DNA of 64,000 bases from Patescibacteria group bacterium (GTDB lineage: Bacteria; Patescibacteriota; JABMPQ01; JAQVVF01). Each line of letters opens with the position of its first letter. Within the stretch, counting starts at the first letter, position 1. Positions 1 to 58,757 of the stretch are shown here, one piece after another. The translations under genes and the position numbers were made by a program. The notes under the pieces were generated by a model. The model was not told the DNA's origin. It saw only the letters and a program-made list of their open reading frames with translations, and searched no databases. The DNA is taken from the NCBI GenBank assembly GCA_028699085.1, contig JAQVVF010000005.1, forward strand, positions 79 through 64,078, given 5' to 3'.

Positions 1-63
1 TTCCTTTTTGCCCGCCTGCTTGGGCTTCGCCCCCAAAACTTTTCGGCGGTCGGTCGGCGGGAC
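1..63. repeat. GC-rich element, partial copy truncated by the window edge. It is the reverse complement of 7846..7908, with a 49-bp perfect match.
   Basis: Bases 1-49 (ttcctttttgcccgcctgcttgggcttcgcccccaaaacttttcggcgg) are the exact reverse complement of 7857..7905. About 65% GC, against a ~30% background. Confidence 0.7.
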
Positions 64-150
64 AGAAAACAAAAGAGAAGATAAAAGAGGAATAACGCTT
101 GCCCCACCCACCCGTGCGCGCGTTATGTCGAATGAACTCCCTAATTTTGT

Positions 151-179
151 TTGACTAAATGCTAAAAATTTCATATACT
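151..179 (+). promoter_or_regulatory. Putative sigma70-like promoter of the HTH-hsdR-hsdMS-rloC operon
   Basis: TTGACT at 151-156, a 17-nt spacer, then TATACT at 174-179. Located ~60 nt upstream of the first ATG at 239. Confidence 0.45.
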
Positions 180-238
180 AACTCTTGATAAGTGATGATT
201 TTAATACTATATAACTATAATAGTAAAACTATACGAAT

Positions 239-448
239 ATGTCAAACGAAAAATCCACAATTGGGGACAACATAAGAAAATACCGAAACAAACTCGGTAT
301 TTCTCAAGATGTGCTTTCAAAGAAAGCAGATTTGGCTTTTCATACAATCGCCAAGATTGAAGCTGGCTCTACTCCAAACCCCACAATTGATACAGTCAAA
401 AAAATAGCGGACGCTCTCGGCGTTTCGCTTGATGATTTAATGAAATAA
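239..448 (+). CDS. XRE-family helix-turn-helix transcriptional regulator (R-M controller/C-protein-like)
   Basis: 69 aa. Cro/C1-type HTH (GISQDVLSKKADLAFHTIAKIE). First gene of the R-M operon, 4 nt before hsdR. Confidence 0.8.
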   Translation: MSNEKSTIGDNIRKYRNKLGISQDVLSKKADLAFHTIAKIEAGSTPNPTIDTVKKIADALGVSLDDLMK

Positions 449-452
449 AATT

Positions 453-2966
453 ATGACAAATTCTAAAGAAGCAAAAGCACGAATAAAAATAAACAAATTG
501 CTTGAACAAGCGGGCTGGAGATTTTTTGATAATGAAAAAGGACAAGCAAACATTTCACTTGAACCAAATGTAAAACTTACCCAAAAGGACATTGACGCTT
601 TTGGTGAAGATTTTGAATCTACAAAAAACGGCTTTATTGATTTTTTATTGCTTGATGAAAAAGGTTTCCCACTTGTTATTTTGGAAGCCAAAAAAGAAGA
701 TAAAAATCCACTAGACGGAAAAGAACAAGCGAGAAAATATGCTCATACTGAAAATGCTCGTTTTGTAATTCTTTCAAACGGCAATCTTCATTATTTTTGG
801 GACTTGGAACGAGGCGATCCTGAAATTATCACGGAATTTCCAACGCAAGAATCTTTGAAGCACAGGCAAGATTTCAAACCCGACAATCAGCGTTTAGCAG
901 ACGAAGAAGTCAAAGAGGATTATATTGCGTTTACTCAAAATCCAAATTTCAAAGATGATCCTCGCTATCTCAACAAAGAAACACGAGAACAATATCTTTG
1001 GGACGAAAACTTGCGAATTTTACGCCCATATCAGCTCAAAGCGGTTCACGCTTTGCAAAAATCCGCCGAAGCTGGAAATGATCGTTTTCTTTTTGAAATG
1101 GCAACGGGAACAGGAAAAACGCTTATTTCCGCCGCCATTATTAAACTTTTTTTAAGAACAGGAAACGCAAAAAGAATTTTGTTTTTGGTTGACCGTTTGG
1201 AATTGGAAGATCAAGCACATAAAAACTTTGTCCGCTATTTGAGCAACGATTTTTCCTCTGTTATTTATAAGCAAAATCGTGATGACTGGAAAAAGGCGGA
1301 AGTGGTTATCACAACCGTTCAAAGTCTTTCATCGCAAGACAAATACAAAAAACTATTTTCACCAACTGATTTTGATTTAGTTATTGCTGATGAATCACAC
1401 CGAGCAATCGGCGGAAATTCGCGCGCAGTTTTTGAATACTTTATCGGCTACAAATTGGGCTTAACCGCAACACCGAAAGACTATTTGAAAAATGTTGATC
1501 CACAAAAGTTATCGCAAAAAGACCCGCGAGCTTGGGAAAGACGGCAATTGCTTGATACTTACACGACTTTTGGTTGCAAAAACGGCGAGCCGACTTTCCG
1601 CTTTAGTTTGCTTGACGGCGTGCGAGAAGGATTTTTGATCAATCCTATTGTTTCGGACGCTCGGACAGACATCACAACTGAATTGCTTTCAGAAAAAGGC
1701 TATGCGGTCATGATTGAAGATGAAGAAGGTGGCGAAAGCGAAGAAACATTTTTTCAAAAGGATTTTGAAAAGAAATTCTTTTCCGAAAAGACAAATCGTG
1801 TCTTTTGCCAAACATTTATCGAAAATTCTCTCAAAGACCCGATAAGCGGTGAAATCGGCAAAAGTATTATATTTTGTGTAAGCCAAAAACATGCTTCAAA
1901 AATTACCCAAACACTCAACCAAATGGCGAGCCAGCTTTGGCCCGACAAATACAATTCTGATTTTGCCGTGCAAATAACCTCAAACATTGCCGATAGCCAA
2001 CAATTCCCGATCAATTTTGCCAATAACAATTTAAGCGGGCATACAAAATTTTTAGAAAACTACAAATCAAGCAAAACCAGAATTTGTGTAACTGTCGGAA
2101 TGATGACGACTGGCTATGATTGCCAAGATATTTTGAATCTTGCGCTTATGCGTCCCGTCTTTTCGCCGACTGATTTTATCCAGATCAAAGGACGAGGAAC
2201 AAGAAAATTTACTTTTGAATATACCGACGAATACGGCGAAAAGCACAAAGCAATAAAAGATCATTTCAAATTTTTTGATTTTTTCGCTAACTGCGAATAC
2301 TTTGAAGAAAAATTTGATTATGACGAGGTTTTGCTGTTGCCTATCAAACAAAAAGGAACTGGTGGAGAAGGACCTGTCGGCGTTGATATTGATGAAATAG
2401 AAATTTTCAATCCCGACAAGGTAAAATCCCTCACCGAAATACCCGTTGGAATTGAGGGAATGAAAGTTGATCGAAAACTTTTTGAGAAAGCCCGCGAGGA
2501 ATTACAAAACGATCCCGAAGTAAAAACTGCCGTTGAAAGCGAGCAATGGGAAAAGGCGGTGCAGATAATGCGGAACAAATACGAAGACAAACCGCAATTA
2601 TTCCTAAATCTTGAAAAAATCCGCAAGAGTGAAAATCTTGATCGCCGTATTTCTTGGCGTGAATTTTTAGAGCGAGCTTTCGGCTTGATTGATGTTTTCA
2701 AATCCAAAGACGAGAAATTGGAAGAAGAATGCGAAAAATTTATTTCAATCTACAAACCCGAAAGCAAATATGTTCCACATATCAAAAATTATCTGAAGGC
2801 GTATGTTACGGATTCAGAAATTCGCGACATTATAGATTCCAAAGAATATGGGCGTTTTGCAACCAATCCAAAAGTTACGATGAAAGATTTTCGAGATCTG
2901 AATGGATATCGTGAAGTCGTCCCTGAATATGTAAAGGATTATGTAGCTATTAACGCTTTCATGTAA
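453..2966 (+). CDS. hsdR: Type I restriction enzyme R subunit (HsdR-like endonuclease/helicase)
   Basis: N-terminal HsdR_N/Mrr-like PD-(D/E)xK region (DFLLLDEKG...ILEAKK). SF2 helicase motifs: I ATGTGKT, II DESH, III LTATP. 837 aa. Operon with a methylase. Confidence 0.85.
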   Translation: MTNSKEAKARIKINKLLEQAGWRFFDNEKGQANISLEPNVKLTQKDIDAFGEDFESTKNGFIDFLLLDEKGFPLVILEAKKEDKNPLDGKEQARKYAHTENARFVILSNGNLHYFWDLERGDPEIITEFPTQESLKHRQDFKPDNQRLADEEVKEDYIAFTQNPNFKDDPRYLNKETREQYLWDENLRILRPYQLKAVHALQKSAEAGNDRFLFEMATGTGKTLISAAIIKLFLRTGNAKRILFLVDRLELEDQAHKNFVRYLSNDFSSVIYKQNRDDWKKAEVVITTVQSLSSQDKYKKLFSPTDFDLVIADESHRAIGGNSRAVFEYFIGYKLGLTATPKDYLKNVDPQKLSQKDPRAWERRQLLDTYTTFGCKNGEPTFRFSLLDGVREGFLINPIVSDARTDITTELLSEKGYAVMIEDEEGGESEETFFQKDFEKKFFSEKTNRVFCQTFIENSLKDPISGEIGKSIIFCVSQKHASKITQTLNQMASQLWPDKYNSDFAVQITSNIADSQQFPINFANNNLSGHTKFLENYKSSKTRICVTVGMMTTGYDCQDILNLALMRPVFSPTDFIQIKGRGTRKFTFEYTDEYGEKHKAIKDHFKFFDFFANCEYFEEKFDYDEVLLLPIKQKGTGGEGPVGVDIDEIEIFNPDKVKSLTEIPVGIEGMKVDRKLFEKAREELQNDPEVKTAVESEQWEKAVQIMRNKYEDKPQLFLNLEKIRKSENLDRRISWREFLERAFGLIDVFKSKDEKLEEECEKFISIYKPESKYVPHIKNYLKAYVTDSEIRDIIDSKEYGRFATNPKVTMKDFRDLNGYREVVPEYVKDYVAINAFM

Positions 2967-2971
2967 AAATT

Positions 2972-5428
2972 ATGCTTAATCAAGATACAAAACGAAAAAT
3001 TGACTCTGCCCGTAATATCCTTGTCGGCAAAGTTCCTGATCCAAAAGCACAGGTTGAGCAAATCACGACTGCTCTCATCTATAAATTTATGGATGATATG
3101 GACAAGGAAGCTCAAGAGCTTGGCGGTAAGGCAAGGTATTTTACAAATGGCTACGAAAAATATTCGTGGACAAAATTGATGGATGTAAAACTTGGTGGGC
3201 ATGAACGCTTGAACCTGTATTTTGAAGCAGTGAGCAGTCTTGGTCGCAATCAGCACATGCCACAAATTTTTAGAGATATTTTCGGCGATAAATCATTGCC
3301 ACCCTATCGTGATCCGCAAACCCTCACTCTTTTTTTGAAAGAGATAAATGGCTTTAATTTTGATCACAGCGAAGATTTGGGTGACGCTTATGAATACCTG
3401 CTTAATGTTATTGGCACATCTGGCGAAGCGGGACAATTTCGCACGCCTCGCCAAATTATTGATTTTATAGCAACAGCGGTTGATCCAAAAAAAGGTGATA
3501 CAGTTTGCGATCCTGCCTGCGGAACGGCTGGCTTCTTGATTTCTGCCTACAAACATATTTTAAAACAGCATGACGGTTTAGATGATCCCGAAAAAACAGA
3601 AAAACCGCTTACTCCAGACGAAAAGAAAAATTTGATGAATCATTTTGTCGGCTACGATATTGATCCAGGAATGGTGCGGATTGCTACGGTAAATATGTAT
3701 TTGCACAATTTTCCTGAACCGAAAATTTTTGAATACGACACGCTCACTTATGAGGACAGGTGGGACGAAACTTTTGATGTGATTCTCGCCAATCCGCCAT
3801 TTATGACACCAAAGGGCGGAATTCGTCCGCACAAGCGTTTTAGTATTCAAGCGAACCGATCGGAAGTCCTTTTTGTTGATTATATTGCCGACCATTTGAA
3901 TCTAAACGGCAAGGCGGGCGTGATTGTTCCCGAAGGGATTATTTTCAATAATCAAGTTGCATACAAGAATTTGCGAAAAAAATTAGTGGAAAGTTGTTTG
4001 ATTGCCGTCGTGAGTTTGCCTCAAGGTATTTTTATCAAGCCGGGCGGAAAAGGAAATGTCAAAACTGGTGTTTTGATTTTTGACAAAGAACTGGTCAAAA
4101 AAACCAAAGATGTTTTATTTGTGAAAATCAGCAATGACGGTTTTGATCTTGGCGCGCAAAGACGAGTAATTGATAAAAATGATTTGCCCTTGGCTTTGGG
4201 AATTATCAAAAGATATAAATCTGCGTTGAAAAACGGCAAGGATTTTGAATTAGACGAAGAAGAAAACAAAATTGCGCATATTGTTGCCAAAGAAAAAATT
4301 GCTGAAACTGGCGACTATAATTTAACAAATGAACGATATAAAGAAACGGCTGAGCGAATAAATCAAAAATATCCAATGGTTGAATTGGGCGAGGTTTGTG
4401 AGATGTATCAACCAAAAACAATCACCTCAAAAGAAATAAAATCAGAAGGAAAATATAAGGTTTTTGGGGCAAATGGAGTTATTGGATATTACGACAAGTA
4501 TAATCACGAAGATAGCGAGGTTCTTATCACTTGTCGTGGGGCAACTTGTGGGACACTTAATTTATCTGAGCCAAATTCTTGGATTACTGGAAATGCAATG
4601 GTAATAAAGCCAAAGGATGATCGACTTAGCAAGCAGTTTCTTTTTTACATTCTGAAACAATCAAACTTTAAATCGGTAATTTCTGGATCAGCTCAACCTC
4701 AAATAACAAGGACATCATTATCACCTTTAGAAATACCACTTCCGCCGATTGAAATTCAAAAAGAAATCGTTGAGCAGATTGAGGTCAAGCAAAATGCCAT
4801 AGATCACGCCAAGGCGATTATCCAAAATCTAGAGAGAGAGAGACGCTATTTTGGTCAATCACTTAGAAAATTAGAAGGCGTTGAATGGGTGGAATTGGGT
4901 GAAATTTTTGAAAAAGTGAGTGATCAAATCAATCCACAAAATAATTCTGGTTCAGTCGTCTATATTGGACTAGAAAACATTGAATCAAATTCAGGAAATA
5001 TAGTTGGGGAAATAAATACCGAAATGAAATCAATTAGAAGCATTAAAAATGTATTTAAAGAATCAGATATTCTGTATGGAAAACTAAGACCGAATTTAAA
5101 CAAGGTATGGTTATCAGATCGAAAAGGCATTTGCTCTACTGATATTCTGGTTTTAAGGAAAAAGAAAGAAGAAATGAATCCGTGGCTTTACACAATTATT
5201 TTAAGAAGTGAGGAATTTAACACTGAGGTTTTGAAAGGGCTAAAAGGTGCGCAATTGCCAAGAGTGAGTTTTGAGTACTTATCTAAAATCAAAATCCCAT
5301 ACTTGGTAGAAGAATTACAAGAAAGATATTTGAGCGATTTAAAAAATGAGGAAGAAGCAATAAATGCAAACAAAAAAATGATTGAAATTTACGAACAAAA
5401 AATTTCTGATGTGTTAAGCGAAATATAA
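2972..5428 (+). CDS. Type I R-M methyltransferase fused to specificity subunit (HsdM-HsdS fusion)
   Basis: N-terminal HsdM_N region. AdoMet motif DPACGTAGFL. N6-adenine MTase motif NPPF. The C-terminal ~350 aa contain two HsdS-like target-recognition domains (LITCRGATCG...; YGKLRPNLNKVW...) separated by a conserved EIQKEIVEQIE spacer. Confidence 0.8.
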   Translation: MLNQDTKRKIDSARNILVGKVPDPKAQVEQITTALIYKFMDDMDKEAQELGGKARYFTNGYEKYSWTKLMDVKLGGHERLNLYFEAVSSLGRNQHMPQIFRDIFGDKSLPPYRDPQTLTLFLKEINGFNFDHSEDLGDAYEYLLNVIGTSGEAGQFRTPRQIIDFIATAVDPKKGDTVCDPACGTAGFLISAYKHILKQHDGLDDPEKTEKPLTPDEKKNLMNHFVGYDIDPGMVRIATVNMYLHNFPEPKIFEYDTLTYEDRWDETFDVILANPPFMTPKGGIRPHKRFSIQANRSEVLFVDYIADHLNLNGKAGVIVPEGIIFNNQVAYKNLRKKLVESCLIAVVSLPQGIFIKPGGKGNVKTGVLIFDKELVKKTKDVLFVKISNDGFDLGAQRRVIDKNDLPLALGIIKRYKSALKNGKDFELDEEENKIAHIVAKEKIAETGDYNLTNERYKETAERINQKYPMVELGEVCEMYQPKTITSKEIKSEGKYKVFGANGVIGYYDKYNHEDSEVLITCRGATCGTLNLSEPNSWITGNAMVIKPKDDRLSKQFLFYILKQSNFKSVISGSAQPQITRTSLSPLEIPLPPIEIQKEIVEQIEVKQNAIDHAKAIIQNLERERRYFGQSLRKLEGVEWVELGEIFEKVSDQINPQNNSGSVVYIGLENIESNSGNIVGEINTEMKSIRSIKNVFKESDILYGKLRPNLNKVWLSDRKGICSTDILVLRKKKEEMNPWLYTIILRSEEFNTEVLKGLKGAQLPRVSFEYLSKIKIPYLVEELQERYLSDLKNEEEAINANKKMIEIYEQKISDVLSEI

Positions 5429-5430
5429 CT

Positions 5431-7845
5431 ATGATTAGCAAAATCTCAAAACTCGATAAAGTTGCTAAATTTTCTTCCATTACACAAGAGAAGGTTTTTC
5501 AATATGGTGGGAAAGGACAAAACTGCAATATCGTCTTTGGATTTAATGGATCTGGGAAAACCACTCTATCAAATGCAATTTCATTTTTCGCCGACAACTC
5601 CTTTATTAGTGAGGACGAAAAGAAAGAAATATATGATGATATAAAAAATGGTGATGATTCTATCGTTGAATTAAGCACACAAGGAAATTCAACAATAAAA
5701 TACCCTGCCAACAGCGCACATAGTAAAAATATTTATATTTTCAATTCCAACTTTGTCGCTACTCATGTTTTTAACGGCACGAAAGGAAAATTGAAAAAAT
5801 TTTCGAATATAGGCGGTGAAATTAAAAACAAGGAAATTGATAATATCAATCAGCAAATTGAAGTGCTTGACGAGGAGAAGAAAAAGCTAGAAAACGAAAA
5901 TACAAAATTAGGCGAAAAGCACGAGGAAATTACAAAAACCAGAAGCAAAAGTTTTGGTAAAACTTTGACCGATAAAAACAAAAGACTTTTAACTCAAGAT
6001 TTAACTAATGTTCAATTACCCACAGAAACTATTGAAAATCTTGAAGTAAAACTCGCTACATTTTCTGCCGATTATGAATTGAGCAAAAAACAGACTGAGT
6101 TAAACGCCGACCTTGAAGAATTACGACAACTAAATTTTAGCTCATTGGATTTTGATTTTCCAAAATTAGACGAGCTACTGGCAAAAAATATTCAACAACT
6201 GTCAAAAGAAGTTTTGGAAAAAAAGATAAAGGAAGTGCAAAATCTTTTTTCGGATGACCAACATAAACAAAGTGTTGAGAAATGGTTTAGATTTGGAAAG
6301 GATGTTTTAGAGAACACAAACGGGAATGACAAAAAACACTGCCCGATTTGTAATACAGATATATCAGAGCGAATGAGTTTAATTTTGAAGGATTATCAAG
6401 GATATTTTGATGAAAGTTATGAAAATTTTATTAACGATTTAAAGCTAAAAAGTGATGATATTTCAACGAATACCGTCACTTTAGAACAACACGAGCTAAA
6501 TGCTAGTAAATTAGAAAAACTGCAAATCAAGTATGCAAAACTGCTAGGCGAGCTTTCTTTTGAAAAATTTGATTTTAAAGATATTAAAGCTGACCTTGTT
6601 GAGTTAAAAGAAAGTTTTGTTTCAAAAAATGGGAATGTTCAAGACAATTTTTCAAAACCAAAGAATATAGAAAATAATATTACTGCCCTCAATCTTGCCT
6701 TGACAGCGTTTCAAGAACTCAGGAACAATGTTTTGAAACTTTTAGAATCAAAGAAATTAAACACGCACACTATTGAGGGACAAATCAGACAAACCTATAA
6801 CGAAATTATCCTACTAGAATTTAATCAAACTGATAAACTTGGGGCAATAAAGAAGTACAAAGTCAATAAAAATAGAATTGAGGCTATCATAGACAGCAAA
6901 GAGGCAGGTCTTCCTTTTTGGAAAAACAAATTGCTAGAAGAATTAAGGAAGCTCAAAGCTGAATCAAAGAGTATTTCCAGATATTTAAACAAAATGGGGA
7001 TAGATCATTTTGATATTGATATTAACGAAGAAAAACAAGACGAAAATATTATAATCAAATACAAAAATTCGACAAATGAGAAAAATAAGCTCAAAAATTG
7101 TTTGAGCGACGGCGAAAAAACAGCGTTAGCTTTCGCGTATTTTTTAAGTAAATTTGAAAATGAAATAAACACACCAGAAAAAGTGAAAGATTCTGTTGTG
7201 GTTATAGATGATCCGATTTCTAGCTTGGACGATAACAGACTTTACAGCACCGCTCATTTAATTTGGCGCAACTTTGAGGAAGCAAAGCAACTCATCGTAT
7301 TGAGTCATAACTTTCTTTTCTTGAAGTTTTTCAATTCTTTTTATTGTGGAAAAGCAAACTGTTTATTCTTGGATAGTGAAAAGATTACTGATTTGCCAGA
7401 TGAATTAAAAAACTTTGAAACGCCTTATTTTTATATGCTTAAGACAATCATTGATTTCTTGGATCAGAATAATCAAAATGTAAATTACAATGAAGCGAAA
7501 CGATACTTACCGAATTTCATTAGACGAGTTTTGGAAACATTTCTATCATTTAAGTTTTCAAGAACAGTCAACAAATCTGGCGGACATAGAAGTCCTGGAT
7601 TAAACGAATTTGATGAAAATATTGATAATACTGATATGGATGATAAAATAAAGAAAGAGTTGAAAGATAAAATAGCAGAAATAAACAGAATTGCAGATGC
7701 ACATTCTCACGGAAACGCTCATCACACGCAAGAAAATTTTTATATTTCCGAAACCGATCTCAAAACATTATCCCAAAGTGCAATCTCTGTTATTGAAACA
7801 ATGGATAATTTGCACAAGACTTGTTTTGTTAAAATTGAAAATTAG
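5431..7845 (+). CDS. RloC/PrrC-like ABC-type ATPase with a coiled-coil zinc hook and a putative C-terminal anticodon-nuclease domain
   Basis: 804 aa. Walker A GFNGSGKTT. Long K/E-rich coiled coil with a central CPICNTD (CxxC hook). ABC signature LSDGEK. Walker B/D-loop VVVIDDPISSLD. C-terminal region with R/H-rich motifs (NFIRRVLETF; AHSHGNAHH). Located immediately after hsd genes (restriction-linked ORF). Confidence 0.7.
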   Translation: MISKISKLDKVAKFSSITQEKVFQYGGKGQNCNIVFGFNGSGKTTLSNAISFFADNSFISEDEKKEIYDDIKNGDDSIVELSTQGNSTIKYPANSAHSKNIYIFNSNFVATHVFNGTKGKLKKFSNIGGEIKNKEIDNINQQIEVLDEEKKKLENENTKLGEKHEEITKTRSKSFGKTLTDKNKRLLTQDLTNVQLPTETIENLEVKLATFSADYELSKKQTELNADLEELRQLNFSSLDFDFPKLDELLAKNIQQLSKEVLEKKIKEVQNLFSDDQHKQSVEKWFRFGKDVLENTNGNDKKHCPICNTDISERMSLILKDYQGYFDESYENFINDLKLKSDDISTNTVTLEQHELNASKLEKLQIKYAKLLGELSFEKFDFKDIKADLVELKESFVSKNGNVQDNFSKPKNIENNITALNLALTAFQELRNNVLKLLESKKLNTHTIEGQIRQTYNEIILLEFNQTDKLGAIKKYKVNKNRIEAIIDSKEAGLPFWKNKLLEELRKLKAESKSISRYLNKMGIDHFDIDINEEKQDENIIIKYKNSTNEKNKLKNCLSDGEKTALAFAYFLSKFENEINTPEKVKDSVVVIDDPISSLDDNRLYSTAHLIWRNFEEAKQLIVLSHNFLFLKFFNSFYCGKANCLFLDSEKITDLPDELKNFETPYFYMLKTIIDFLDQNNQNVNYNEAKRYLPNFIRRVLETFLSFKFSRTVNKSGGHRSPGLNEFDENIDNTDMDDKIKKELKDKIAEINRIADAHSHGNAHHTQENFYISETDLKTLSQSAISVIETMDNLHKTCFVKIEN

Positions 7846-8215
7846 TCCCGCCGTCCCGCCGAAAAGTTTTGGGGGCGAAGCCCAAGCAGGCGGGCAAAAA
7901 GGAAGGGGGTTGGGGGGAAGGAATTTTTGCCCGCCTGCTTCCGTTCCCGTTCCGTTTGAGCAAAGGAAAAGCGGAAGGGGGGTTTGGGGGGAATTCCGCC
8001 ACGCCCGAGCGAAATCAAATTGTGGACAGCCCCGCCGTCCTGCTCGTTAAGAGCAGAACCCCGCACAAAAGTTTTCTTTTCCTTTTAGAAGAAAAAAATC
8101 GGCGCGCGCAAATCAAAAATTGTGAAGAAAACTTTTTTGCGGGGTGGCGAGGTTTCCGAGCGACGGCGGGGCTGGCTTCCTTATTGGGGGTTTTGCTCAA
8201 AAAAAGTTCGAACAT
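7846..8215. repeat. GC-rich (~60% GC) hairpin-dense element. Possible MITE/att-like element or structured RNA.
   Basis: Perfect 15-bp stem at 7886..7938 (gcaggcgggcaaaaa/tttttgcccgcctgc). Long imperfect hairpin 8025..8067 pairing with 8130..8176. 7857..7905 is the reverse complement of 1..49. No plausible ORF. Confidence 0.6.
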
Positions 8216-8255
8216 CAATCAAAAAACACCGTTTTTTATAAAAAAATATTTTTAT

Positions 8256-8738
8256 ATGGAAAATAACAAACAATCTACACAATGTTGTCCAAAATTTAAT
8301 CCAGAACTTTGGGATAATAAAATTATTACTTGGAATAACAAAAAATTTATCAAAGATAAAGTTTTCACCTTGTTCCACATGCCAATTAATTTTGGTTCAG
8401 TTATGAAAAGAATAACTGAAAAGGTAGAAAAAAATAAAGTTAATATTCCTGGTTATCTTTGCCTATCAGATCATACTTCAAAATGGAATATGGATGTTTA
8501 TTTAGCAGTTGATAAAGAAGTACCTGATGCTGAAAATATTACTTTAAATGGAAAATACTTAAGTAAAGTTTATGAAGGAAATTTTAAAGATACAGGCAAA
8601 TGGAGTGAAGATTTTAAAAATTTTGCTAAAGAAAAAGGTTTTAATATCAAAAAATGGTATATGTGGTATACGACTTGTCCAAAATGCGCCAAAAAATATG
8701 GCAAGAATTATGTAGCAATAATTGCCCAAATTGGCTAA
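8256..8738 (+). CDS. Hypothetical Cys-containing protein (CCPKF..., CPKCAKKYG zinc-ribbon-like end)
   Basis: 160-aa ORF starting at the ATG at 8256. The longer 7869 start lies in a non-coding GC-rich repeat. No recognised family. Confidence 0.45.
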   Translation: MENNKQSTQCCPKFNPELWDNKIITWNNKKFIKDKVFTLFHMPINFGSVMKRITEKVEKNKVNIPGYLCLSDHTSKWNMDVYLAVDKEVPDAENITLNGKYLSKVYEGNFKDTGKWSEDFKNFAKEKGFNIKKWYMWYTTCPKCAKKYGKNYVAIIAQIG

Positions 8739-8796
8739 CTATATCAAAAATATTTTTTGGATAATTTGATTTTAAAAAAATAAATAACGAAAATTT

Positions 8797-9528
8797 ATGT
8801 TAAAAAACAAAACTGCCATTGTAACTGGTGCTGGTCAAGGTATTGGCAAGGGAATTGCCGTAGCTTTGGCAAAAGAAGGTTGCAATATTGTTGTTTCAGA
8901 TATCAATCAGGAAACTTGTGATCAAACTTTTGCTGAGATTACGAAATTGGGAGTTCAATCTATTGCTGTAAAATGTGATGTTTCAAAAAAAACAGAAGTT
9001 AATAATCTTTCAAAAGTTGTCGCAGAAAAATTTAATAAGATTGATATTTTAGTTAATAACGCTGGTATTTTTCCATTTGTTCCTTTTGCCAAAATGACTG
9101 AAGCTGATTGGGACAAAGTTTTAAATATTAATTTAAAAAGCATGTTCCTAACTTCCCAGGCTATTTCTTTGAATATGCCAGAAGGTGGAAAAATTGTTAA
9201 CATCTCCTCAGTTGCTTCTTTCATTGGTTTCGAAGGTTTAGTTCACTATTGCGCTTCCAAAAGTGGTGTTAATGGCTTGGTTAGAGCTTTAGCTTTAGAA
9301 TTAGCCCCTAGAAAAATCAATGTCAATGCTGTTGCCCCAGGAGCTATTGAAACTCCAGGTGCAAAATCGGACGAAAAAACAAAACAGCAAACTTTAATGA
9401 TGATTCCTCAAAAAAGAATGGGTAAACCAGAGGATATTGCTAATACTGTTGTCTTTTTAGCATCTGATAAATCAGATTATATTACCGGACAAGTTATAGT
9501 TGTTGATGGTGGTTGGACATTAAGATAA
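8797..9528 (+). CDS. SDR-family oxidoreductase (FabG-like)
   Basis: TGAGQGIGKG Rossmann motif. NNAG. YxxxK (YCASK) catalytic motif. 243 aa. Confidence 0.85.
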   Translation: MLKNKTAIVTGAGQGIGKGIAVALAKEGCNIVVSDINQETCDQTFAEITKLGVQSIAVKCDVSKKTEVNNLSKVVAEKFNKIDILVNNAGIFPFVPFAKMTEADWDKVLNINLKSMFLTSQAISLNMPEGGKIVNISSVASFIGFEGLVHYCASKSGVNGLVRALALELAPRKINVNAVAPGAIETPGAKSDEKTKQQTLMMIPQKRMGKPEDIANTVVFLASDKSDYITGQVIVVDGGWTLR

Positions 9529-9535
9529 TTATTTT

Positions 9536-10276
9536 ATGCTTAGTGCATTACTACTTACAACAATATCTGGACTGTCAACAGTTATTGGTGGCTTGGCAAT
9601 TTATATTATCAAGAATAAAAACAAATATTATAGTTTAGGAATGGGTTTTGCTGCTGGAGTAATGATTTATATCTCTTTTGTCGAATTACTTGGTAAGAGT
9701 ATAATAAAAATTGGATATGGAAAATCAATACTGTCATTTTTTATTGGGATTATTATAATTTTTCTTATTGATATTTTGATACCTCATCTCTATCAGGAAG
9801 AAAAAAAGATTATAACTAAACAAGGTAAGACTTTTACAAAAAGTGCGATTCTAATAACAATTGGTATCGCAATCCATAACTTTCCAGAAGGCATAGCAGT
9901 ATTCTATTCTTCTCTTGCTGGTTTAAGTTTTGGATTATTTATTACATTAGCAATAATATTGCATAATATTCCCGAAGGTTTTTCAATTGCAATGGCTGTC
10001 AATAAAGCCACAAATAACAGAAGAAGAGCAATCTGGTTTTGCTTTATTTCTGGTATTGCTGAACCAATCGGTGCCTTATTATCCATTATCTTTTTGTATC
10101 GTTTCATTGATCAAAATTTATTAAACATTATTTTAGCTGGAGTCGCTGGAGTTATGATTTTTATTAGTTTTGATGAATTATTGCCTCAAGCTTATACGCA
10201 AAAAAGTGCCCATCTAACAATTGGCGGCATAATAAGCGGTATGGCAATAATGTCAATCAGCTTATATTTCCTTTAA
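9536..10276 (+). CDS. zupT: ZIP-family zinc transporter (ZupT-like)
   Basis: Multi-TM protein with HNFPEG and HNIPEG signature motifs. Confidence 0.8.
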   Translation: MLSALLLTTISGLSTVIGGLAIYIIKNKNKYYSLGMGFAAGVMIYISFVELLGKSIIKIGYGKSILSFFIGIIIIFLIDILIPHLYQEEKKIITKQGKTFTKSAILITIGIAIHNFPEGIAVFYSSLAGLSFGLFITLAIILHNIPEGFSIAMAVNKATNNRRRAIWFCFISGIAEPIGALLSIIFLYRFIDQNLLNIILAGVAGVMIFISFDELLPQAYTQKSAHLTIGGIISGMAIMSISLYFL

Positions 10277-10278
10277 TT

Positions 10279-11595
10279 ATGTCTCACAAAGAAAAAATTT
10301 TAGATATTATAAAACAATTAAAAAATTTAAAATCAAAGAATCAACCTGTTTCTTTTTCCAAAAAAACAGTTTCTCATTTTGTTCCATCAGCACACACATC
10401 AAGAGAAAAACTGCCCAAATTAGATTTAAAGTCTTTAGATTCTTTACTTAATATTGATCCAAAAAAAAATATTGGTATTGCTGAACCTGGTCTTACTTTC
10501 TCGGAATTATTAATAGAATCATTGAAATATAATTTAATTCCAGCTGTTGTCCCAGAATTAAAGACCATTACTTTAGGAGGTGCAATTTCCGGATGTTCAA
10601 TAGAATCAATGTCCTACAAGTATGGAGGATTCCATGATAGTTGTTTAGAATATGAAATAATCACTAGCAATGGAGAAATCATTATCTGCTCAAAAGATAA
10701 TAACCAAGATATTTTTGATATGATTCATGGTTCATATGGAACATTAGGAATAATTTCCAAAATAAAATTTAAATTATTGCCTGCCAAACCATATGTTCAT
10801 TTACTTTACAAAAAATATAATAATTTTGAGCAGTATTGGAATGATTTGCAAAAATACTGCCAGGAAAAACAATTTGATTTTATTGATGGAATAATTTATA
10901 ACACAAATTTATTTATTCTTTGTTTAGGCAATATGGAAGATTCTGCTCCTTTTACATCGAAATATGATTGGCTAAAAGTCTTTTATAAAGCTACTGCCAA
11001 GAAAGAAGAAGATTATTTTAAAATTTACGATTATTTTTATCGTTATGATGCTGATTGCCATTGGCTATCAAAAAAAATTCCGTTAATGGAAACATTTTTT
11101 GGCAGATTATTTTTTGGAAAGTTTGTTTTAGGATCAAGCAACTTAATAAAACTCTCCAAAAAGTTTGGGCCAAAAATTAATAAAGGCAAGAAACCAGATG
11201 TTGTTGTTGATGTTTTTATTCCTAACAATAATTTTCCACAATTTTATAATTGGTATAAAAAAGATTTTAATTTTTTTCCACTATGGATTGTGCCATACAG
11301 AGCTCCAAAAATCTACCCTTGGGTTTCTAACAGTTTAGCTAGCAAAATTGAAGATGCTTTTTTCATTGATGCTGCAATCTATGGTAAAGAAAACAATGAA
11401 AAAAATATTGATTATGCTAAAATGCTTGAAGATAAAGTTTTTGAACTTAATGGCATTAAGACTCTAATTTCACAAAACCATTATTCTAGAACAAGATTCT
11501 GGGAAATTTATAATTTTGAAAATTTTAAAAAAGTTAAACAAAAAACAGATCCAAATAATTTGTTTAATGATTTATATAAAAAAATGGTTAGATAG
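10279..11595 (+). CDS. FAD-binding oxidoreductase (FAD_binding_4 / ALO- or DprE1-like)
   Basis: PCMH-type FAD-binding domain (LGGAISGCS...GSYGTLGII). The C-terminal ...DPNNLFN end is typical of FAD-linked oxidases. Confidence 0.7.
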   Translation: MSHKEKILDIIKQLKNLKSKNQPVSFSKKTVSHFVPSAHTSREKLPKLDLKSLDSLLNIDPKKNIGIAEPGLTFSELLIESLKYNLIPAVVPELKTITLGGAISGCSIESMSYKYGGFHDSCLEYEIITSNGEIIICSKDNNQDIFDMIHGSYGTLGIISKIKFKLLPAKPYVHLLYKKYNNFEQYWNDLQKYCQEKQFDFIDGIIYNTNLFILCLGNMEDSAPFTSKYDWLKVFYKATAKKEEDYFKIYDYFYRYDADCHWLSKKIPLMETFFGRLFFGKFVLGSSNLIKLSKKFGPKINKGKKPDVVVDVFIPNNNFPQFYNWYKKDFNFFPLWIVPYRAPKIYPWVSNSLASKIEDAFFIDAAIYGKENNEKNIDYAKMLEDKVFELNGIKTLISQNHYSRTRFWEIYNFENFKKVKQKTDPNNLFNDLYKKMVR

Positions 11596-11615
11596 TTTAG
11601 TAAATAAAAAAAAGT

Positions 11616-12239
11616 ATGAAAACAAAAATGTACGCGTTACCAGCCTTGCCTTATGATTATAAGGCTTTAGTCCCGTTTCTTTCTGAAGAGCAATTAAAAA
11701 TTCATCATGACAAGCATCACAAAGCATACGTCGATAAAGCAAATGAAGTTTTAGGAAAATTAGAAATTGCCCGAAGAGAGGGGACAAAAATTGATGTTAA
11801 AGCAGTATCAAAAAATCTATCATTTCAAGCAGCTGGCGCATTATTGCACTCATTATTTTGGAAAAATTTAGCTCCAAAAGATCAAACGCAAACAGAACCA
11901 ACAAAAATTATTGGCGATGAAATTACAAAAGAATTTAGTAGCTTTGAAAGATTTAGAAAAGAATTTACAGATTGTGCAATCAATTGTGAAGGATCAGGCT
12001 GGGCAACACTTGCCTATGATCGACAGACAAATCATCTCGTAATTATGCAAATTGAAAAGCATAATATTAATATTATTCCAGGTCTAGATTTACTTTTAGT
12101 TTTAGATGTCTGGGAGCATGCTTATTATCTTGATTATAAAAATGAACGTCCAAAATATGTCGAAGCTTTCTGGCAAAATGTTAACTGGCAAGAAGTAGAG
12201 ATCAGATTAGACAAGGCGATACTTACCTTAAAGCAATAA
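11616..12239 (+). CDS. sodA: Fe/Mn superoxide dismutase
   Basis: LPYDYKALVPFLSEEQLKIHHDKHH N-terminal motif and DVWEHAYYLDY C-terminal signature. Confidence 0.9.
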   Translation: MKTKMYALPALPYDYKALVPFLSEEQLKIHHDKHHKAYVDKANEVLGKLEIARREGTKIDVKAVSKNLSFQAAGALLHSLFWKNLAPKDQTQTEPTKIIGDEITKEFSSFERFRKEFTDCAINCEGSGWATLAYDRQTNHLVIMQIEKHNINIIPGLDLLLVLDVWEHAYYLDYKNERPKYVEAFWQNVNWQEVEIRLDKAILTLKQ

Positions 12240-12291
12240 TTAAATAAATAAAAAATCTGCTAATCACTAGCAGATTTTATTTACAAAAGAA

Positions 12292-12786: not shown

Positions 12787-12814
12787 GTTTTTTATTAAAA
12801 TAATTTTATTTAAA

Positions 12815-12887
12815 CGGGCCGGACGGGACTTGAACCCGCGACCTTCTCCGTGACAGGGAGACGTGAACTCCGCTTCACTACCGGCCC
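12815..12887 (-). tRNA. tRNA-Asp (GTC)
   Basis: Cloverleaf with anticodon loop CTGTCAC, GGTTCAAGTCC T-arm and 7-bp acceptor stem GGGCCGG/CCGGCCC. No encoded CCA. Confidence 0.85.
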
Positions 12888-12927
12888 AAATTTATTTCTC
12901 AATGGTTTGCATCACAGATTATATCAA

Positions 12928-13001
12928 TAGCAGGGGACGGATTCGAACCGTCGACCGCCACTTTATGAGTGTGGTGCTCTAACCAACTGAGCTACCCTGC
13001 C
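12928..13001 (-). tRNA. tRNA-Met (CAT), elongator type. Could alternatively be tRNA-Ile2 (lysidine).
   Basis: Anticodon loop CTCATAA, D-arm GTAGCTCAGTTGGTTAGAGC and T-arm GGTTCGAATCC. The anticodon stem lacks the three G-C pairs of an initiator. Confidence 0.75.
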
Positions 13002-13090
13002 TCAAAACAAATAACTAAATTATAAATTAAAAATGACAAAATTTAGAATCGTAAATTTTTCATTTATAATTTAGTTATTTTTAATTCAAA

Positions 13091-13164
13091 ATTGCGGGGG
13101 GCGGATTTGAACCGCCGACCTTCAGGTTATGAGCCTGACGAGCTTCCAAGCTGCTCTACCCCGC
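13091..13164 (-). tRNA. Initiator tRNA-fMet (CAT)
   Basis: The sequence CGCGGGGTAGAGCAGC...GGCTCATAACC...GGTTCAAATCCGCCCCCCGCAA closely resembles bacterial tRNAfMet, including a C1:A72 mismatch. Confidence 0.85.
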
Positions 13165-13605
13165 GATAATACGTATATTATATATTAAACAATAAAAAAA
13201 GCAAGTTCACTTGCTCCTATCGATTATTGATGCAATATAAAATTATTTAGGTCCGAAAAAATATTTTAATAACGGCAAAATAGCATAAAAAATAAATGCC
13301 AGAATTGCCACTAAAATAAGATAAACTCTCAAAATTTTTGCTTCTTCTAACATTTGATCCAAAGTCTAATTACATAAATCAAAGTAAACAACAAAACAAT
13401 TGTCGTGCATGCAAAAAATAATAGTAGTTTTTCTGTTAATTCCATGACTTTAGTGATTAGTAAATAAGTAATTAGTAAGTAGTAAGTCATCTATATTATA
13501 AATAATATTTAAAAAGATGGCAACCTTTTAATTAATGATAATTCTTGTTAAACTGATAGAGAGCGATAACTAGTTACTAGTCACTTATTTACTAATTACA
13601 AAAAT

Positions 13606-22981: not shown

Positions 22982-23194
22982 CGTGTCCTCCTTCGAAGTC
23001 AATAATTCAGAGTGCTTACTTGCACAGGTCAAAATATATTAGCATATCTTTTTTATTTTGTCAATCAATACGTTATAATATCCCTTAATTAAGCCAAAAC
23101 AGAATATCACATATCCCCAAATTTTCCTTGCAAAATCATCATTATTTGTTATACTAATATTGTTTAGAAAACTCTAATTTTATGTTTAAAAAAT

Positions 23195-33457: not shown

Positions 33458-33563
33458 CTTGATAATAAAAACCTGTTATACTGCAAATAATGTGTATGCA
33501 AACAATGAACAGAAAATTTCGCTTCAATCACTTCTATCTCGGAGAATTATTTTAATCCCTTTA

Positions 33564-33589
33564 AAATCCGCTATCGAGCGGATTTTTTG
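33564..33589 (+). terminator. Rho-independent terminator after gatB
   Basis: Hairpin aatccgctatcgagcggatt followed by TTTTTT. Confidence 0.55.
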
Positions 33590-33639
33590 ATACTCGTGCA
33601 CCTTCCCAATTAATAGGAAAGAAAAGGAGGAAAAAGGAA

Positions 33640-34665: not shown

Positions 34666-34712
34666 TTTGTATACTATTATAAAACCGACTCTCATCGGTT
34701 TTTTCTTGGTTA

Positions 34713-54098: not shown

Positions 54099-54111
54099 TT
54101 TTTAAATTTAT

Positions 54112-58755: not shown

Positions 58756-58757
58756 TC

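What the first reader, a model, noticed from the sequence alone, without database searches (positions are those of the whole stretch)
7846..8215. GC-rich, highly structured ~370-bp element with nested hairpins. Candidate MITE, att-like site or novel ncRNA.
The element contains a perfect 15-bp stem (7886..7900 with 7924..7938) around a G-rich loop (gggggttgggggg). It also has a long interrupted hairpin (cagccccgccgtc...ccccgcacaaaagttttc paired with gaaaacttttttgcgggg...gacggcggggctg) whose loop contains GGCGCGCGC. Its 5' portion recurs inverted at the window start. It has no credible ORF and no resemblance to RNase P, tmRNA, SRP or 6S consensus that I can see. Such GC islands are conspicuous in a 30%-GC genome.
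Basis: seen in the sequence. Interest (0 to 1): 0.65.

Follow-up and report, generated by a model that had tools for sequence, protein, structure and literature searches.

The report
End repeat of a mobile defence cassette
The GC-rich hairpin block is the outer end of an 8-kb restriction-modification cassette inserted at the tip of a serine tRNA gene in a Patescibacteria genome; the cassette belongs to a widespread, apparently undescribed family that keeps the same end repeats and regulator gene but swaps its defence genes.

Summary
Window 7845-8231 is 53% GC in a 32% GC genome. It holds a perfect 17-bp hairpin and a long branched hairpin, and its first 49 nt recur inverted at window 1-49.

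It is not a free-standing MITE and matches no Rfam family. It is the distal terminal repeat of an insertion of at least 8.2 kb carrying an HTH regulator, a type I R-M system and an RloC/PrrC-like ATPase.

Two contigs from a 99.1%-identical population show the empty site. There the 3' end of tRNA-Ser(UGA), ...CTCTCCG, runs directly into the sequence that follows window 8231.

The outermost 55 bp (M4) resembles the tRNA T-arm and 3' end, and it is the part present in every family variant examined. The inner hairpin modules M1-M3 are optional, and their stems are kept by compensatory changes.

In at least ten related units a large serine recombinase gene lies between a tRNA gene and the inverted copy of the repeat. 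The window's exact 69-aa HTH occurs in 472 collection blocks and heads many different cargos. One chromosomal locus shows direct cargo replacement.

The recombinase and left junction lie off-window, and the role of M1-M3 is inferred. I rate it a new variant of a known kind.

The parts
1..65 (-). Inner part of the HTH-proximal inverted copy of the repeat (IR-L; module M1, cut by the window start). The rest of IR-L, and any recombinase gene and tRNA-Ser, lie off-window to the left.
   Evidence: 1-49 is a 100% reverse complement of 7856-7904. nhmmer matches M1 positions 5-60 on the minus strand. In L222, which is 91% identical to window 1-4404, the full IR-L, a ~250-nt spacer and the start of a large serine recombinase follow.
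66..150 (+). Conserved spacer M0, with a small hairpin AACGC..CTTGCCCCACCCACCCGT..GCGTT at about 94-124 and the motif GAACTCCCT. It is found only on the HTH side.
   Evidence: Conserved upstream of the HTH gene in about 20 loci. 87-93% identical in L204-L223.
151..238 (+). Promoter-like site TTGACT-17-TATACT (151-179) followed by repeated ACTATA motifs (candidate operator) ahead of the HTH gene. A second promoter-like site on the minus strand (245-217, TTGACA-17-TATTAT) points outward through IR-L.
   Evidence: Consensus scan; alignment of upstream regions. Function not tested.
239..448 (+). 69-aa XRE/C-protein-like HTH regulator, the conserved first gene of the cassette.
   Evidence: Pfam HTH_3 1e-15 and PADLOC Control_protein 7e-12. 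941 clusters at E<=1e-12, the best 120 at >=86% identity. The exact sequence occurs in 472 collection blocks.
453..2966 (+). Cargo gene 1: type I restriction subunit (HsdR-like).
   Evidence: ResIII, HSDR_N; PADLOC REase_I 5e-56.
2972..5428 (+). Cargo gene 2: fused type I methyltransferase plus specificity subunit.
   Evidence: N6_Mtase 9e-55, Methylase_S 3e-32; PADLOC MTase_I 8e-91.
5431..7845 (+). Cargo gene 3: AAA_13 ATPase of the RloC/PrrC-like class (PADLOC PDC-S06). Its stop codon TAG is at 7843-7845.
   Evidence: AAA_13 1e-59; PDC-S06 1e-47; PrrC 4e-17.
7845..7954 (+). Module M1 of the distal repeat (IR-R): small GGGC-GAA-GCCC hairpin, then a perfect 17-bp stem (7884-7900/7924-7940) with the loop GGAAGGGGGTTGGGGGGAAGGAA, which is unchanged in all full-length copies aligned.
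7955..8025 (+). Module M2: hairpin GCGGAA / TTCCGC around the loop GGGGGGTTTGGGGGGAA. In this copy the lower stem is broken because the 5' arm is of subfamily A and the 3' arm of subfamily B, a recombinant joined in the loop.
   Evidence: Alignments. L138 and L204 have the matching B-type 5' arm. Helix 1 has 7 of 13 pairs with changes on both sides.
8026..8176 (+). Module M3: branched structure with an outer stem (8027-8039/8162-8174), a small hairpin (about 8043-8055), a 21-bp inner stem (8058-8078/8125-8145) and a loop holding the invariant GGCGCGCGC.
   Evidence: Across the three M2-M3 helices tested, 46 pairs are 97.4% paired and 16 have changes on both sides; 0 of 500 shuffles reach this.
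8177..8231 (+). Module M4: terminal segment present in every family variant examined. It is the element-side arm of the right insertion junction (attR) and resembles a tRNA 3' end (GTTCGAA ... CCG).
   Evidence: Present in all variants, including ends with M4 only. Sharp boundary. Parallel tRNA and M4 junctions. Empty site.
8229..8231 (+). CCG shared by the element end and the tRNA-Ser(UGA) 3' end; the crossover lies in or next to it.
   Evidence: L225 278-4310 aligns to window 8229-12259 at 99.08%. L224 and L225 read ...CCCACCCTCTCCG|TTTTTTATAAAAAAATATTTTTATATGG.
8232..8258 (+). Host flank: the sequence that follows tRNA-Ser(UGA) in the empty site, ahead of the Bact_hydrolase gene (ATG at 8259).

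Best explanation
Window 7845-8231 is the distal end of a site-specific integrative defence element of at least 8.2 kb, inserted at the 3' end of tRNA-Ser(UGA) in a Patescibacteria genome.

Shown:
- The whole block from the window start to 8231 is absent from a 99.1%-identical population. There the tRNA end ...CTCTCCG abuts TTTTTTAT...
- The element end ...AACACCG shares only CCG with the tRNA end. There is no target duplication.
- The last 55 bp (M4) are present in every family variant examined. They carry the T-loop motif GTTCGAA.

Shown in relatives, inferred for this window:
- The other side of the cargo carries an inverted copy of the same repeat. Beyond it come a ~250-nt spacer, a large serine recombinase gene reading outward, and the target tRNA.
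- That recombinase inserted the element, with M4 as one arm of its attachment site.

Inferred for the inner 330 bp (M1-M3):
- They are optional GC-rich hairpin modules kept by compensatory changes.
- They begin at the stop codon of the last cargo gene. I take them to form the structured 3' end or insulator of the cargo transcript. In the inverted copy they would form the leader between the cargo promoter region and the recombinase gene.
- Together with the highly conserved HTH gene, they give the conserved frame in which different defence cargos are exchanged by recombination.
For: Empty site and boundaries:
- Empty site.
- Sharp, conserved outer boundary in more than 30 copies.

Distribution:
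- 42 of the 120 loci hit in genome contigs carry true copies. They come from at least 15 named CPR lineages.
- The host is a Patescibacteria MAG.

Recombinase and tRNA context:
- A large serine recombinase (Resolvase + Recombinase + Zn_ribbon_recom) lies next to the HTH-proximal copy in L204 (two units), L081, L206, L026, L207, L034, L054, L215 and L222.
- Its 3' end abuts a tRNA 3' end in seven loci (Ser x5, Asn, Tyr).
- The same ~60-nt sequence follows both the tRNA ...CCGCCA and, inverted, the proximal M4 ...CACCGCCA.
- In L204 the second unit's recombinase module follows directly on the M4-like end of the first.
- GTTCGAA lies 11 nt from CCG in the tRNA and 16 nt from it in M4. From memory, a 5-bp shift is what distinguishes attB from attP half-sites of serine integrases.

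Cargo turnover:
- An identical HTH heads unrelated cargos.
- L214 and L220 are 99.93% identical through the tRNA-Ser, IR-L and HTH. They carry different cargo, and identity resumes inside M4.
- The window copy itself is a recombinant of two subfamilies.

Structure:
- 46 pairs are 97.4% paired and 16 have changes on both sides; 0 of 500 shuffles reach this, and slid controls give at most 4.
- G-U versus A-C cells are 55 versus 8 on the outward-reading strand, which is the sense strand of the cargo (IR-R) and of the recombinase (IR-L).
Against: - No recombinase gene, left junction or tRNA-Ser is visible in the window, because it starts inside IR-L. tblastn finds no recombinase anywhere in the 64 kb.
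- Several units lack a recombinase altogether (L112, L162, L208, L209, L214, L220), so this copy could be an immobilised derivative.
- No circular or excised form was seen.
- The putative attachment site has only weak dyad symmetry.
- The internal inverted copy of the M4 junction next to the recombinase gene is not explained by a simple integrase model.
- No canonical intrinsic terminator was found in the element.
- In one subfamily the same kind of hairpin sits with a C-rich loop on the outward strand. This weakens any strand-specific RNA role for M1 and M2.
- The G-U bias partly reflects a few inherited changes.
Confidence: 0.75

Rival explanations
1. The block is primarily a gene for a structured non-coding RNA with its own function, for example a regulator of the recombinase or of the R-M/abortive-infection cargo. 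Its position at the cassette ends is secondary.
For: - Strong covariation in three helices.
- Loops unchanged in all aligned copies.
- Folding z-scores near -5.
- Excess of G-U over A-C intermediates on the strand that is sense for both the cargo (IR-R) and the recombinase (IR-L).
- A strong promoter-like site points outward through IR-L (245-217, 11 of 12 matches).
Against: - No Rfam match even at permissive thresholds.
- Modules M1-M3 are dispensable: ends with M4 only occur in units that have a recombinase (L215, L206).
- The modules occur in different combinations.
- The G-loop hairpin type occurs inverted in another subfamily.
- The window copy has a broken M2 stem.
- No expression data are available.
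Confidence: 0.12
2. The two inverted copies are sites for inversion of the whole cargo segment, by the adjacent serine recombinase (as Gin or Hin act on flanking inverted sites) or by homologous recombination. The element would be a switch.
For: - Inverted orientation of nearly identical copies (95-100% within a unit).
- A serine recombinase gene lies just outside one copy.
- L114 shows the opposite orientation of cargo relative to the recombinase.
- Related loci near the Bact_hydrolase gene carry the cassette in either orientation (window versus L162).
Against: - The promoter and HTH gene lie inside the segment, so flipping would not switch the cargo on or off.
- At least 10 units share one orientation and only one has the other.
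- The recombinase is of the large integrase type, and its 3' end sits on a tRNA gene, which fits integration.
- The empty site shows insertion, not inversion.
Confidence: 0.08
3. The repeats have no site-specific or RNA role. They are only conserved homology arms, together with the HTH gene, that let incoming DNA replace the resident cargo by general recombination.
For: - Cargo replaced between 99.9%-identical flanks (L214 versus L220).
- The window copy is chimeric.
- The window is 91% identical to L222 over the first 4.4 kb and then differs.
- Extreme conservation of the HTH gene.
Against: - It does not explain the tRNA-like end, the sharp boundary, the insertion exactly at a tRNA 3' end or the linked recombinase.
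- It does not explain why stems are kept by compensatory changes.
- In L214 versus L220 the right crossover lies inside the 45-nt M4, and the inner modules travelled with the cargo.
Confidence: 0.04
4. The block is a MITE or the arm of a composite transposon moved by a DDE transposase.
For: A short, non-coding, GC-rich, hairpin-rich repeat flanks a gene set in inverted orientation and is found in many genomes.
Against: - No target-site duplication: the empty and filled sites differ by a clean insertion with a 3-nt overlap.
- No dispersed solo copies in 64 kb.
- The block's two ends are unrelated to each other.
- No transposase was seen in any cargo examined.
- Insertion is at tRNA 3' ends next to a serine recombinase.
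Confidence: 0.01

Closest known systems
Genomic islands and prophages integrated by large serine recombinases (phiC31, Bxb1, A118-type integrases)
   Same: The recombinase has Resolvase, Recombinase and zinc-ribbon domains. Insertion is site-specific with only a 2-3 nt overlap and no duplication. The recombinase gene lies at one end. Units occur in tandem.
   Different: The cargo is bracketed by 200-450-bp inverted repeats made of hairpin modules. An intact inverted copy of the end junction lies next to the recombinase gene. The target is the extreme 3' end of tRNA-Ser, and the element end resembles it. There are no phage genes. The recombinase was not seen in this window.
Staphylococcal and enterococcal cassette chromosomes (SCC, ECC; PMC6222049)
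   Same: These are recombinase-borne cassettes that carry variable accessory or defence genes, including type I R-M. They insert at one conserved site, stack in tandem and exchange cargo.
   Different: SCC uses CcrAB at the rlmH 3' end with short terminal repeats. Here the target is a tRNA, the terminal repeats are long and structured, and a 69-aa regulator gene is the fixed first gene. The hosts are CPR bacteria.
R-M gene complexes flanked by long inverted repeats (Furuta, Abe and Kobayashi 2010, PMC2853133)
   Same: R-M genes lie between long inverted repeats and are judged mobile from genome comparison.
   Different: As I recall that paper (its title and abstract were seen; the text was not read), it catalogues individual cases, some with short target duplications. 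Here one repeat family is shared across many phyla with interchangeable cargo, a defined tRNA target and a linked serine recombinase.
Tycheposons (10.1101/2020.12.28.424599)
   Same: These are tRNA-adjacent, cargo-carrying modular elements in streamlined genomes. A minority carry a large serine recombinase.
   Different: They use mostly tyrosine recombinases and often carry replication genes. No conserved inverted hairpin repeats or conserved HTH-first architecture turned up in the passages I searched.
Integron gene cassettes with attC sites
   Same: Variable cargo sits in a conserved frame. The structured, imperfectly palindromic recombination site lies at the 3' end of the cargo, and its stems rather than its sequence are conserved.
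   Different: Integrons use a tyrosine recombinase and single-stranded attC hairpins of 60-140 nt. Cassettes lie in one orientation in arrays and usually lack a promoter. Here the recombinase is of the serine type, the repeats are inverted, and the cargo is a whole operon with its own regulator.
C-protein-controlled R-M systems (for example PvuII, AhdI; PMC2175313, PMC2275141)
   Same: A small HTH gene comes first in the operon, with repeated operator-like motifs in front. This is the arrangement used to delay restriction after entry into a new cell.
   Different: The same regulator here precedes type I, II, IIG and non-R-M cargos. No binding test was done.

Membership tests
Large-serine-recombinase integrative element | Encodes a recombinase with Resolvase, Recombinase and zinc-ribbon domains | tested here: inconclusive
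   Met in at least 10 related units, including L222, which is 91% identical to window 1-4404. No such gene occurs in the 64-kb window. The expected position is left of the window start.
Large-serine-recombinase integrative element | Insertion at a specific site, with an empty site known and only a very short overlap and no target duplication | tested here: met
   L224 and L225 (99.08% identical flank) read tRNA-Ser(UGA)...CTCTCCG|TTTTTTAT. The window reads ...AACACCG|TTTTTTAT. The overlap is CCG.
Large-serine-recombinase integrative element | Left junction (attL) at the same target, formed by the other arm of the attachment site | not testable with these tools
   It lies off-window. In L034, L026, L206 and L215 the tRNA 3' end is followed by the same ~60-nt sequence that follows the proximal M4.
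Large-serine-recombinase integrative element | Attachment-site half-sites with the outer recognition motif 5 bp further out in attP than in attB (recalled from the literature) | tested here: inconclusive
   GTTCGAA lies 11 nt from CCG in the tRNA and 16 nt from it in M4, which fits. The other arms show no matching motif, and dyad symmetry is at most 50%.
MITE | Terminal inverted repeats at the element's own two ends | tested here: not met
   The ends at 7845 and 8231 are unrelated. The hairpins are internal.
MITE | Target-site duplication | tested here: not met
   Comparison of empty and filled sites shows none. None was found at L034 either.
MITE | Many dispersed copies in one genome | tested here: not met
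   There are only two copies in 64 kb, and both lie at the cassette ends. The whole genome was not available.
Known RNA family (Rfam 15) | Score at or above a family's gathering threshold | tested here: not met
   Only three tRNAs were found in the window. Permissive search of 7780-8300 gave only generic hairpin hits far below threshold.
Structured RNA or single-strand element in general | Base pairs kept by compensatory changes beyond controls | tested here: met
   16 of 46 pairs have changes on both sides and 97.4% of cells are paired. 0 of 500 shuffles reach this, and slid controls give at most 4 pairs. Most changes separate two subfamilies, so there are few independent events.
Structured RNA or single-strand element in general | Transcribed as a discrete RNA | not testable with these tools
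   No expression data. Only promoter-like matches are available.
Integron attC | Linked tyrosine integrase IntI and cassettes in one orientation, each with a single 3' site | tested here: not met
   The linked recombinase is of the serine type. The sites are inverted pairs around an operon.
C-protein-controlled R-M operon | Small HTH gene first in the operon, matching controller-protein profiles | tested here: met
   Pfam HTH_3 1e-15; PADLOC Control_protein 7e-12. DNA binding to the ACTATA repeats was not tested.

The most novel reading that the evidence does not exclude
The paired structured repeats, the highly conserved HTH gene and the neighbouring large serine recombinase form a natural cassette-exchange platform. 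The recombinase would act on the two inverted M4 ends to swap whole defence operons between elements across CPR phyla and perhaps into other bacteria and DPANN archaea. The M2-M3 fold would be a transcribed regulatory RNA that couples cargo establishment to recombinase expression.
Probability: 0.12. Interest if true: 0.8.

Novelty: new variant of a known kind. Interest (0 to 1): 0.55.

Why it matters
CPR bacteria mostly lack CRISPR and are thought to rely on restriction-modification. How they acquire and renew those systems is poorly known.

This locus gives a concrete vehicle:
- a compact element with a precisely mapped tRNA-Ser target;
- a recognisable 55-bp end;
- a linked serine recombinase in relatives;
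- a regulator gene so conserved that the identical 69-aa protein occurs in hundreds of assemblies in front of different defence cargos.

It provides a search handle for defence genes in uncultured lineages (HTH plus M4). It also gives a candidate attP/attB/recombinase set for genetic tools in CPR bacteria. Finally, it is a natural example of cargo turnover at a fixed frame.

The long, covarying hairpin repeats with loops unchanged in all aligned copies are not explained by known integrase biology and remain the open part.

Tried and rejected
- **Rfam.** Gathering thresholds on the whole window and permissive thresholds on 7780-8300 found no family.
- **BLAST collections.** Searches against plasmid and phage collections found nothing.
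- **IMG/VR scans.** The stem pattern gave three isolated hits, not examined further. The end pattern gave none, so nothing points to a phage-borne element.
- **Exact-protein look-ups.** HsdR, Bact_hydrolase and GyrB are not on record, so the source contig could not be extended to the left.
- **Target duplication at L034.** None was found. The apparent shared AATTTT belongs to a conserved spacer.
- **First tRNA scan.** It looked unconvincing until the recombinase was found. The tRNA lies beyond the recombinase, not next to the repeat.
- **Metagenome scan with Bact_hydrolase.** Only relatives at 75% identity or less were found and no empty site. It did show cassettes near the same gene in L138, L158 and L162.
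- **G-quadruplex idea for the G-rich loops.** Each loop has only two G runs and they lie about 55 nt apart. This rests on reading the sequence only, so I dropped it.
- **Intrinsic terminators.** None were found in the element.
- **Dyad symmetry of the putative attachment site.** It is weak.
- **Covariance model.** I did not build one, because nhmmer profiles of four modules already separated true copies from chance hits.
- **Literature.** Six searches found no description of this family.
Full report
**1. The observation**

Window 7845-8231 is 53% GC, against 32% for the rest of the window.
- It holds a perfect 17-bp hairpin, 7884-7900 with 7924-7940, around a G-rich loop.
- It holds a second hairpin, GCGGAA/TTCCGC, around GGGGGGTTTGGGGGGAA.
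- It holds a long branched hairpin: 8027-8039 with 8162-8174, and 8058-8078 with 8125-8145. The loop of the latter contains GGCGCGCGC.

Both strands fold much better than shuffled sequence (z about -5). Window 1-49 is an exact reverse complement of 7856-7904. No other copy or fragment occurs in the 64 kb.

The stem is 17 bp rather than 15 bp, and the element runs to 8231 rather than 8215.

**2. What lies between the two copies**

The two inverted copies bracket 7.8 kb at 35% GC. This segment holds four genes:
- a 69-aa XRE/controller-type HTH gene (239-448);
- a type I restriction subunit (453-2966);
- a fused methyltransferase-specificity gene (2972-5428);
- an AAA_13 ATPase of the RloC/PrrC-like class (5431-7845).

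The stop codon of the last gene touches the first base of the repeat.

**3. Relatives**

There was no Rfam match and no hit in the plasmid or phage collections.

BLAST and module profiles show that 42 of these are true copies. Full-length copies are 81-86% identical to the window's copy.

Hosts named in the records:
- CPR lineages: Uhr-, Berkel-, Magasanik-, Nomura-, Falkow-, Peregrini-, Morani-, Harrison-, Yanofsky- and Roizmanbacteria, Saccharibacteria and Parcubacteria.
- A few contigs binned as other phyla, and one binned as a Pacearchaeota archaeon. These short contigs could be binning errors.

The window's GyrB is 100% identical to a protein of a 'Patescibacteria group bacterium' MAG on a 70,387-nt contig, so the host is a CPR bacterium.

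**4. Anatomy of the repeat**

Alignment of full copies and profile searches resolve four modules.

| Module | Window | Content |
|---|---|---|
| M1 | 7845-7954 | 17-bp hairpin |
| M2 | 7955-8025 | second G-loop hairpin |
| M3 | 8026-8176 | branched hairpin |
| M4 | 8177-8231 | terminal segment |

M4 is the only module present in every variant. Ends occur as M1-M2-M3-M4, M2-M3-M4, M1-M4, M1-M3 or M4 alone. A third subfamily carries other hairpins. One of these is the same stem-loop type with the C-rich strand facing outward.

The outer boundary is sharp. More than 30 copies end ...CAAAAAACACCG, mostly followed by CCA. After that they continue into unrelated sequence or into a conserved spacer.

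The stems are maintained by compensatory changes. On 16 distinct copies, 46 pairs are 97.4% paired and 16 pairs have changes on both sides. None of 500 column shuffles reaches these values, and sliding the partners gives at most 4 such pairs. Most of these changes separate two subfamilies, A and B. These are 72-78% identical to each other and 92-100% identical within. The number of independent events is therefore small.

The window's copy is a recombinant. M1 and the 5' arm of M2 are A-type. The 3' arm of M2, M3 and M4 are B-type. The join lies in the M2 loop, which is identical in both subfamilies, and this leaves the lower M2 stem unpaired.

**5. The frame and its cargo**

A homologue of the 69-aa HTH lies next to the inner side of one copy, reading away from it, in about 20 of the first loci. 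A conserved spacer and promoter-like region lie between them.

The protein is extremely conserved:
- 941 clusters have E <= 1e-12, and the best 120 are at least 86% identical.
- The window's exact sequence is indexed in 472 blocks of the assembly collection.

The cargo behind it varies. Examples seen:
- type I R-M with an AAA_13, KAP or SEC-C partner;
- EcoRI-type methylase with GmrSD/HNH and an AAA_15/21 ATPase;
- Dam methylases with AlwI;
- N4/N6 methylases;
- a C5 methylase;
- T5orf172 and Ymh proteins with type IIG-like enzymes;
- an OLD-family nuclease;
- an Hsp70-type set.

Direct replacement is visible at one chromosomal locus. L214 and L220 are 99.93% identical over 4.3 kb that include a tRNA-Ser, IR-L and the HTH gene. 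They then carry unrelated cargo, and identity resumes inside M4 of the distal repeat.

The window is 91% identical to L222 over its first 4.4 kb and then diverges. It is 79-84% identical to L223, which has the same overall architecture.

**6. The recombinase**

Just outside the HTH-proximal copy, separated by about 250 nt and reading outward, lies a gene of about 515 aa. Its product has Resolvase, Recombinase and zinc-ribbon domains, which makes it a large serine recombinase. It is present in L204 (two tandem units), L081, L206, L026, L207, L034, L054, L215 and L222. L059 has a decayed copy.

Its 3' end abuts the 3' end of a tRNA gene in seven loci: Ser five times, Asn once and Tyr once.

The ~60 nt that follow the tRNA's ...CCGCCA also follow, in inverted orientation, the proximal M4's ...CACCGCCA. 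The recombinase gene is thus bracketed by inverted [tRNA-like end + spacer] units. In several loci the two spacers match each other more closely than they match those of other loci.

M4 resembles the 3' part of the tRNA: it has GTTCGAA and then an acceptor-like ...CCG(CCA). In L204 the recombinase module of the second unit follows directly on the M4-like end of the first. This is what is expected if the distal end regenerates a target.

Some units have no recombinase. In L214 and L220 only a scar remains between the tRNA-Ser and IR-L.

**7. The empty site**

The FAD-binding protein encoded 2 kb to the right of the element (10279-11595) has an exact match on two Logan contigs from different runs. 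L225 positions 278-4310 match window 8229-12259 at 99.08%.

In L225, tRNA-Ser(GGA) and tRNA-Ser(UGA) precede the Bact_hydrolase gene. The tRNA-Ser(UGA) end runs directly into the window's flank:

    L225:    ...GGGTTCGAATCCCACCCTCTCCG|TTTTTTATAAAAAAATATTTTTATATGG
    window:  ...GTTCGAACATCAATCAAAAAACACCG|TTTTTTATAAAAAAATATTTTTATATGG

The sequence after the bar is window 8232-8259. Everything from the window start to 8231 is therefore an insertion at the 3' end of tRNA-Ser(UGA). The overlap is three nucleotides and there is no duplication.

GTTCGAA lies 11 nt from the shared CCG in the tRNA and 16 nt from it in M4. From memory, a 5-bp outward shift of the outer recognition motif distinguishes attP from attB half-sites of serine integrases. 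This fits but is not a test, and the other arms show little symmetry.

A relative at about 88% nucleotide identity (L226) has no cassette. It has a 110-nt GC-rich hairpin insert at the same CCG position behind both tRNA-Ser genes.

**8. Interpretation**

Shown:
- The block is the distal terminal repeat of a site-specifically inserted defence element.
- Its last 55 bp form the element side of the junction.

Inferred from relatives:
- A large serine recombinase at the other end did the insertion.
- M4 is one arm of its attachment site.

Least certain is the role of M1-M3. These modules start at the cargo's stop codon. They are on the sense strand of the cargo at the distal end and of the recombinase at the proximal end. 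They show more G-U than A-C intermediates on that strand (55 versus 8 cells). I therefore favour a role as transcribed structure: a 3' end or insulator for the cargo, and a leader for the recombinase. I also see them as conserved sequence where cassettes recombine.

Several observations count against a strict RNA role:
- the modules are optional;
- one hairpin type occurs inverted in another subfamily;
- no canonical terminator was found.

The internal inverted copy of the M4 junction beside the recombinase gene is unexplained. So is the single unit with reversed cargo (L114). Both leave room for inversion or recombinase-mediated cassette exchange.

**9. Comparison and novelty**

The class is known: a serine-recombinase island at a tRNA gene that carries defence genes. 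The closest parallels are SCC/ECC cassettes, tycheposons and the R-M units flanked by long inverted repeats catalogued by Furuta et al. (PMC2853133).

The new features are:
- the long modular hairpin repeats in inverted pairs;
- the tRNA-like end;
- the highly conserved regulator as fixed first gene;
- the breadth across CPR lineages.

Six literature searches found no description of this family. A paper on Patescibacteria gene exchange notes a type I R-M island, but a term search of its text found no mention of recombinases, integrases or inverted repeats. The library is incomplete, so prior description cannot be excluded.

Noticed in passing
L226 7291-7400 and 7600-7707: In a relative at about 88% nucleotide identity, both tRNA-Ser genes are followed by a nearly identical 110-nt GC-rich hairpin insert (TCTTCGCCCGCCGAAGC...GGACAAAGTCCG). 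It sits exactly at the ...CTCTCCG position where the window's element is inserted. A GIY-YIG gene follows. Similar CTTCGCCC... sequences follow M4 in L059 and L078. These may be miniature elements using the same target.
   Followed up: partly
L138 3490-3595 and 7601-7706: A 106-nt stretch starting at the CACCG end of M4 and running into the flank is duplicated (95%) 4 kb upstream, next to a degenerate M4-like sequence. The proximal repeat of that cassette is decayed and no recombinase is present.
   Followed up: partly
L114 735-1659: Two tandem copies of the repeat in the same orientation lie next to the recombinase gene. The cargo's last gene (RloC-like fragments), rather than the HTH gene, faces them. 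This is the only unit with reversed cargo orientation.
   Followed up: no
L216 10001-16948: The window's exact HTH protein heads a non-R-M cargo: a GrpE-like protein, an 837-aa Hsp70-family protein, two unknowns, an AAA ATPase and DUF6804. It is flanked by full repeats and is possibly an uncharacterised defence system.
   Followed up: no
proteins P0113 and P0055: HTH homologues at 90-91% identity are named by their sources as coming from Chlorobium phaeobacteroides BS1 (a cultured isolate) and a Massilibacteroides MAG. The family may therefore reach beyond CPR bacteria and into a tractable organism.
   Followed up: no
window 21650-23032 (minus strand): An orphan gene of about 445-460 aa at 42-46% GC in a 32% GC genome has a long overlapping ORF on the opposite strand. 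It has no Pfam, NCBIfam or Rfam match and is probably another acquired gene.
   Followed up: partly
window 33500-34700: A second GC-rich stretch (40-42% GC) holds a 341-aa ORF (33640-34665) and an antisense ORF, with no family match.
   Followed up: no
window 58756-58902: AT-rich imperfect inverted repeat (arms of 51-57 nt, 79-82% complementary, built from AATTTCTAATTT units) in an intergenic region.
   Followed up: no
window 39714-41117: A protein with FG-GAP repeats (156-nt DNA periodicity at 39948-40462) is fused to a C-terminal staphylococcal-nuclease domain.
   Followed up: no
window 50802-57015 (minus strand): Two adjacent large proteins (1098 and 967 aa) have only PKD and C-terminal DUF4214 matches.
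   Followed up: no
window 13449-13603: A 48-nt imperfect inverted repeat (77% complementary) built from TAGT/TAAGT units lies just upstream of the tRNA-Met/Met/Asp cluster at 12814-13166.
   Followed up: no
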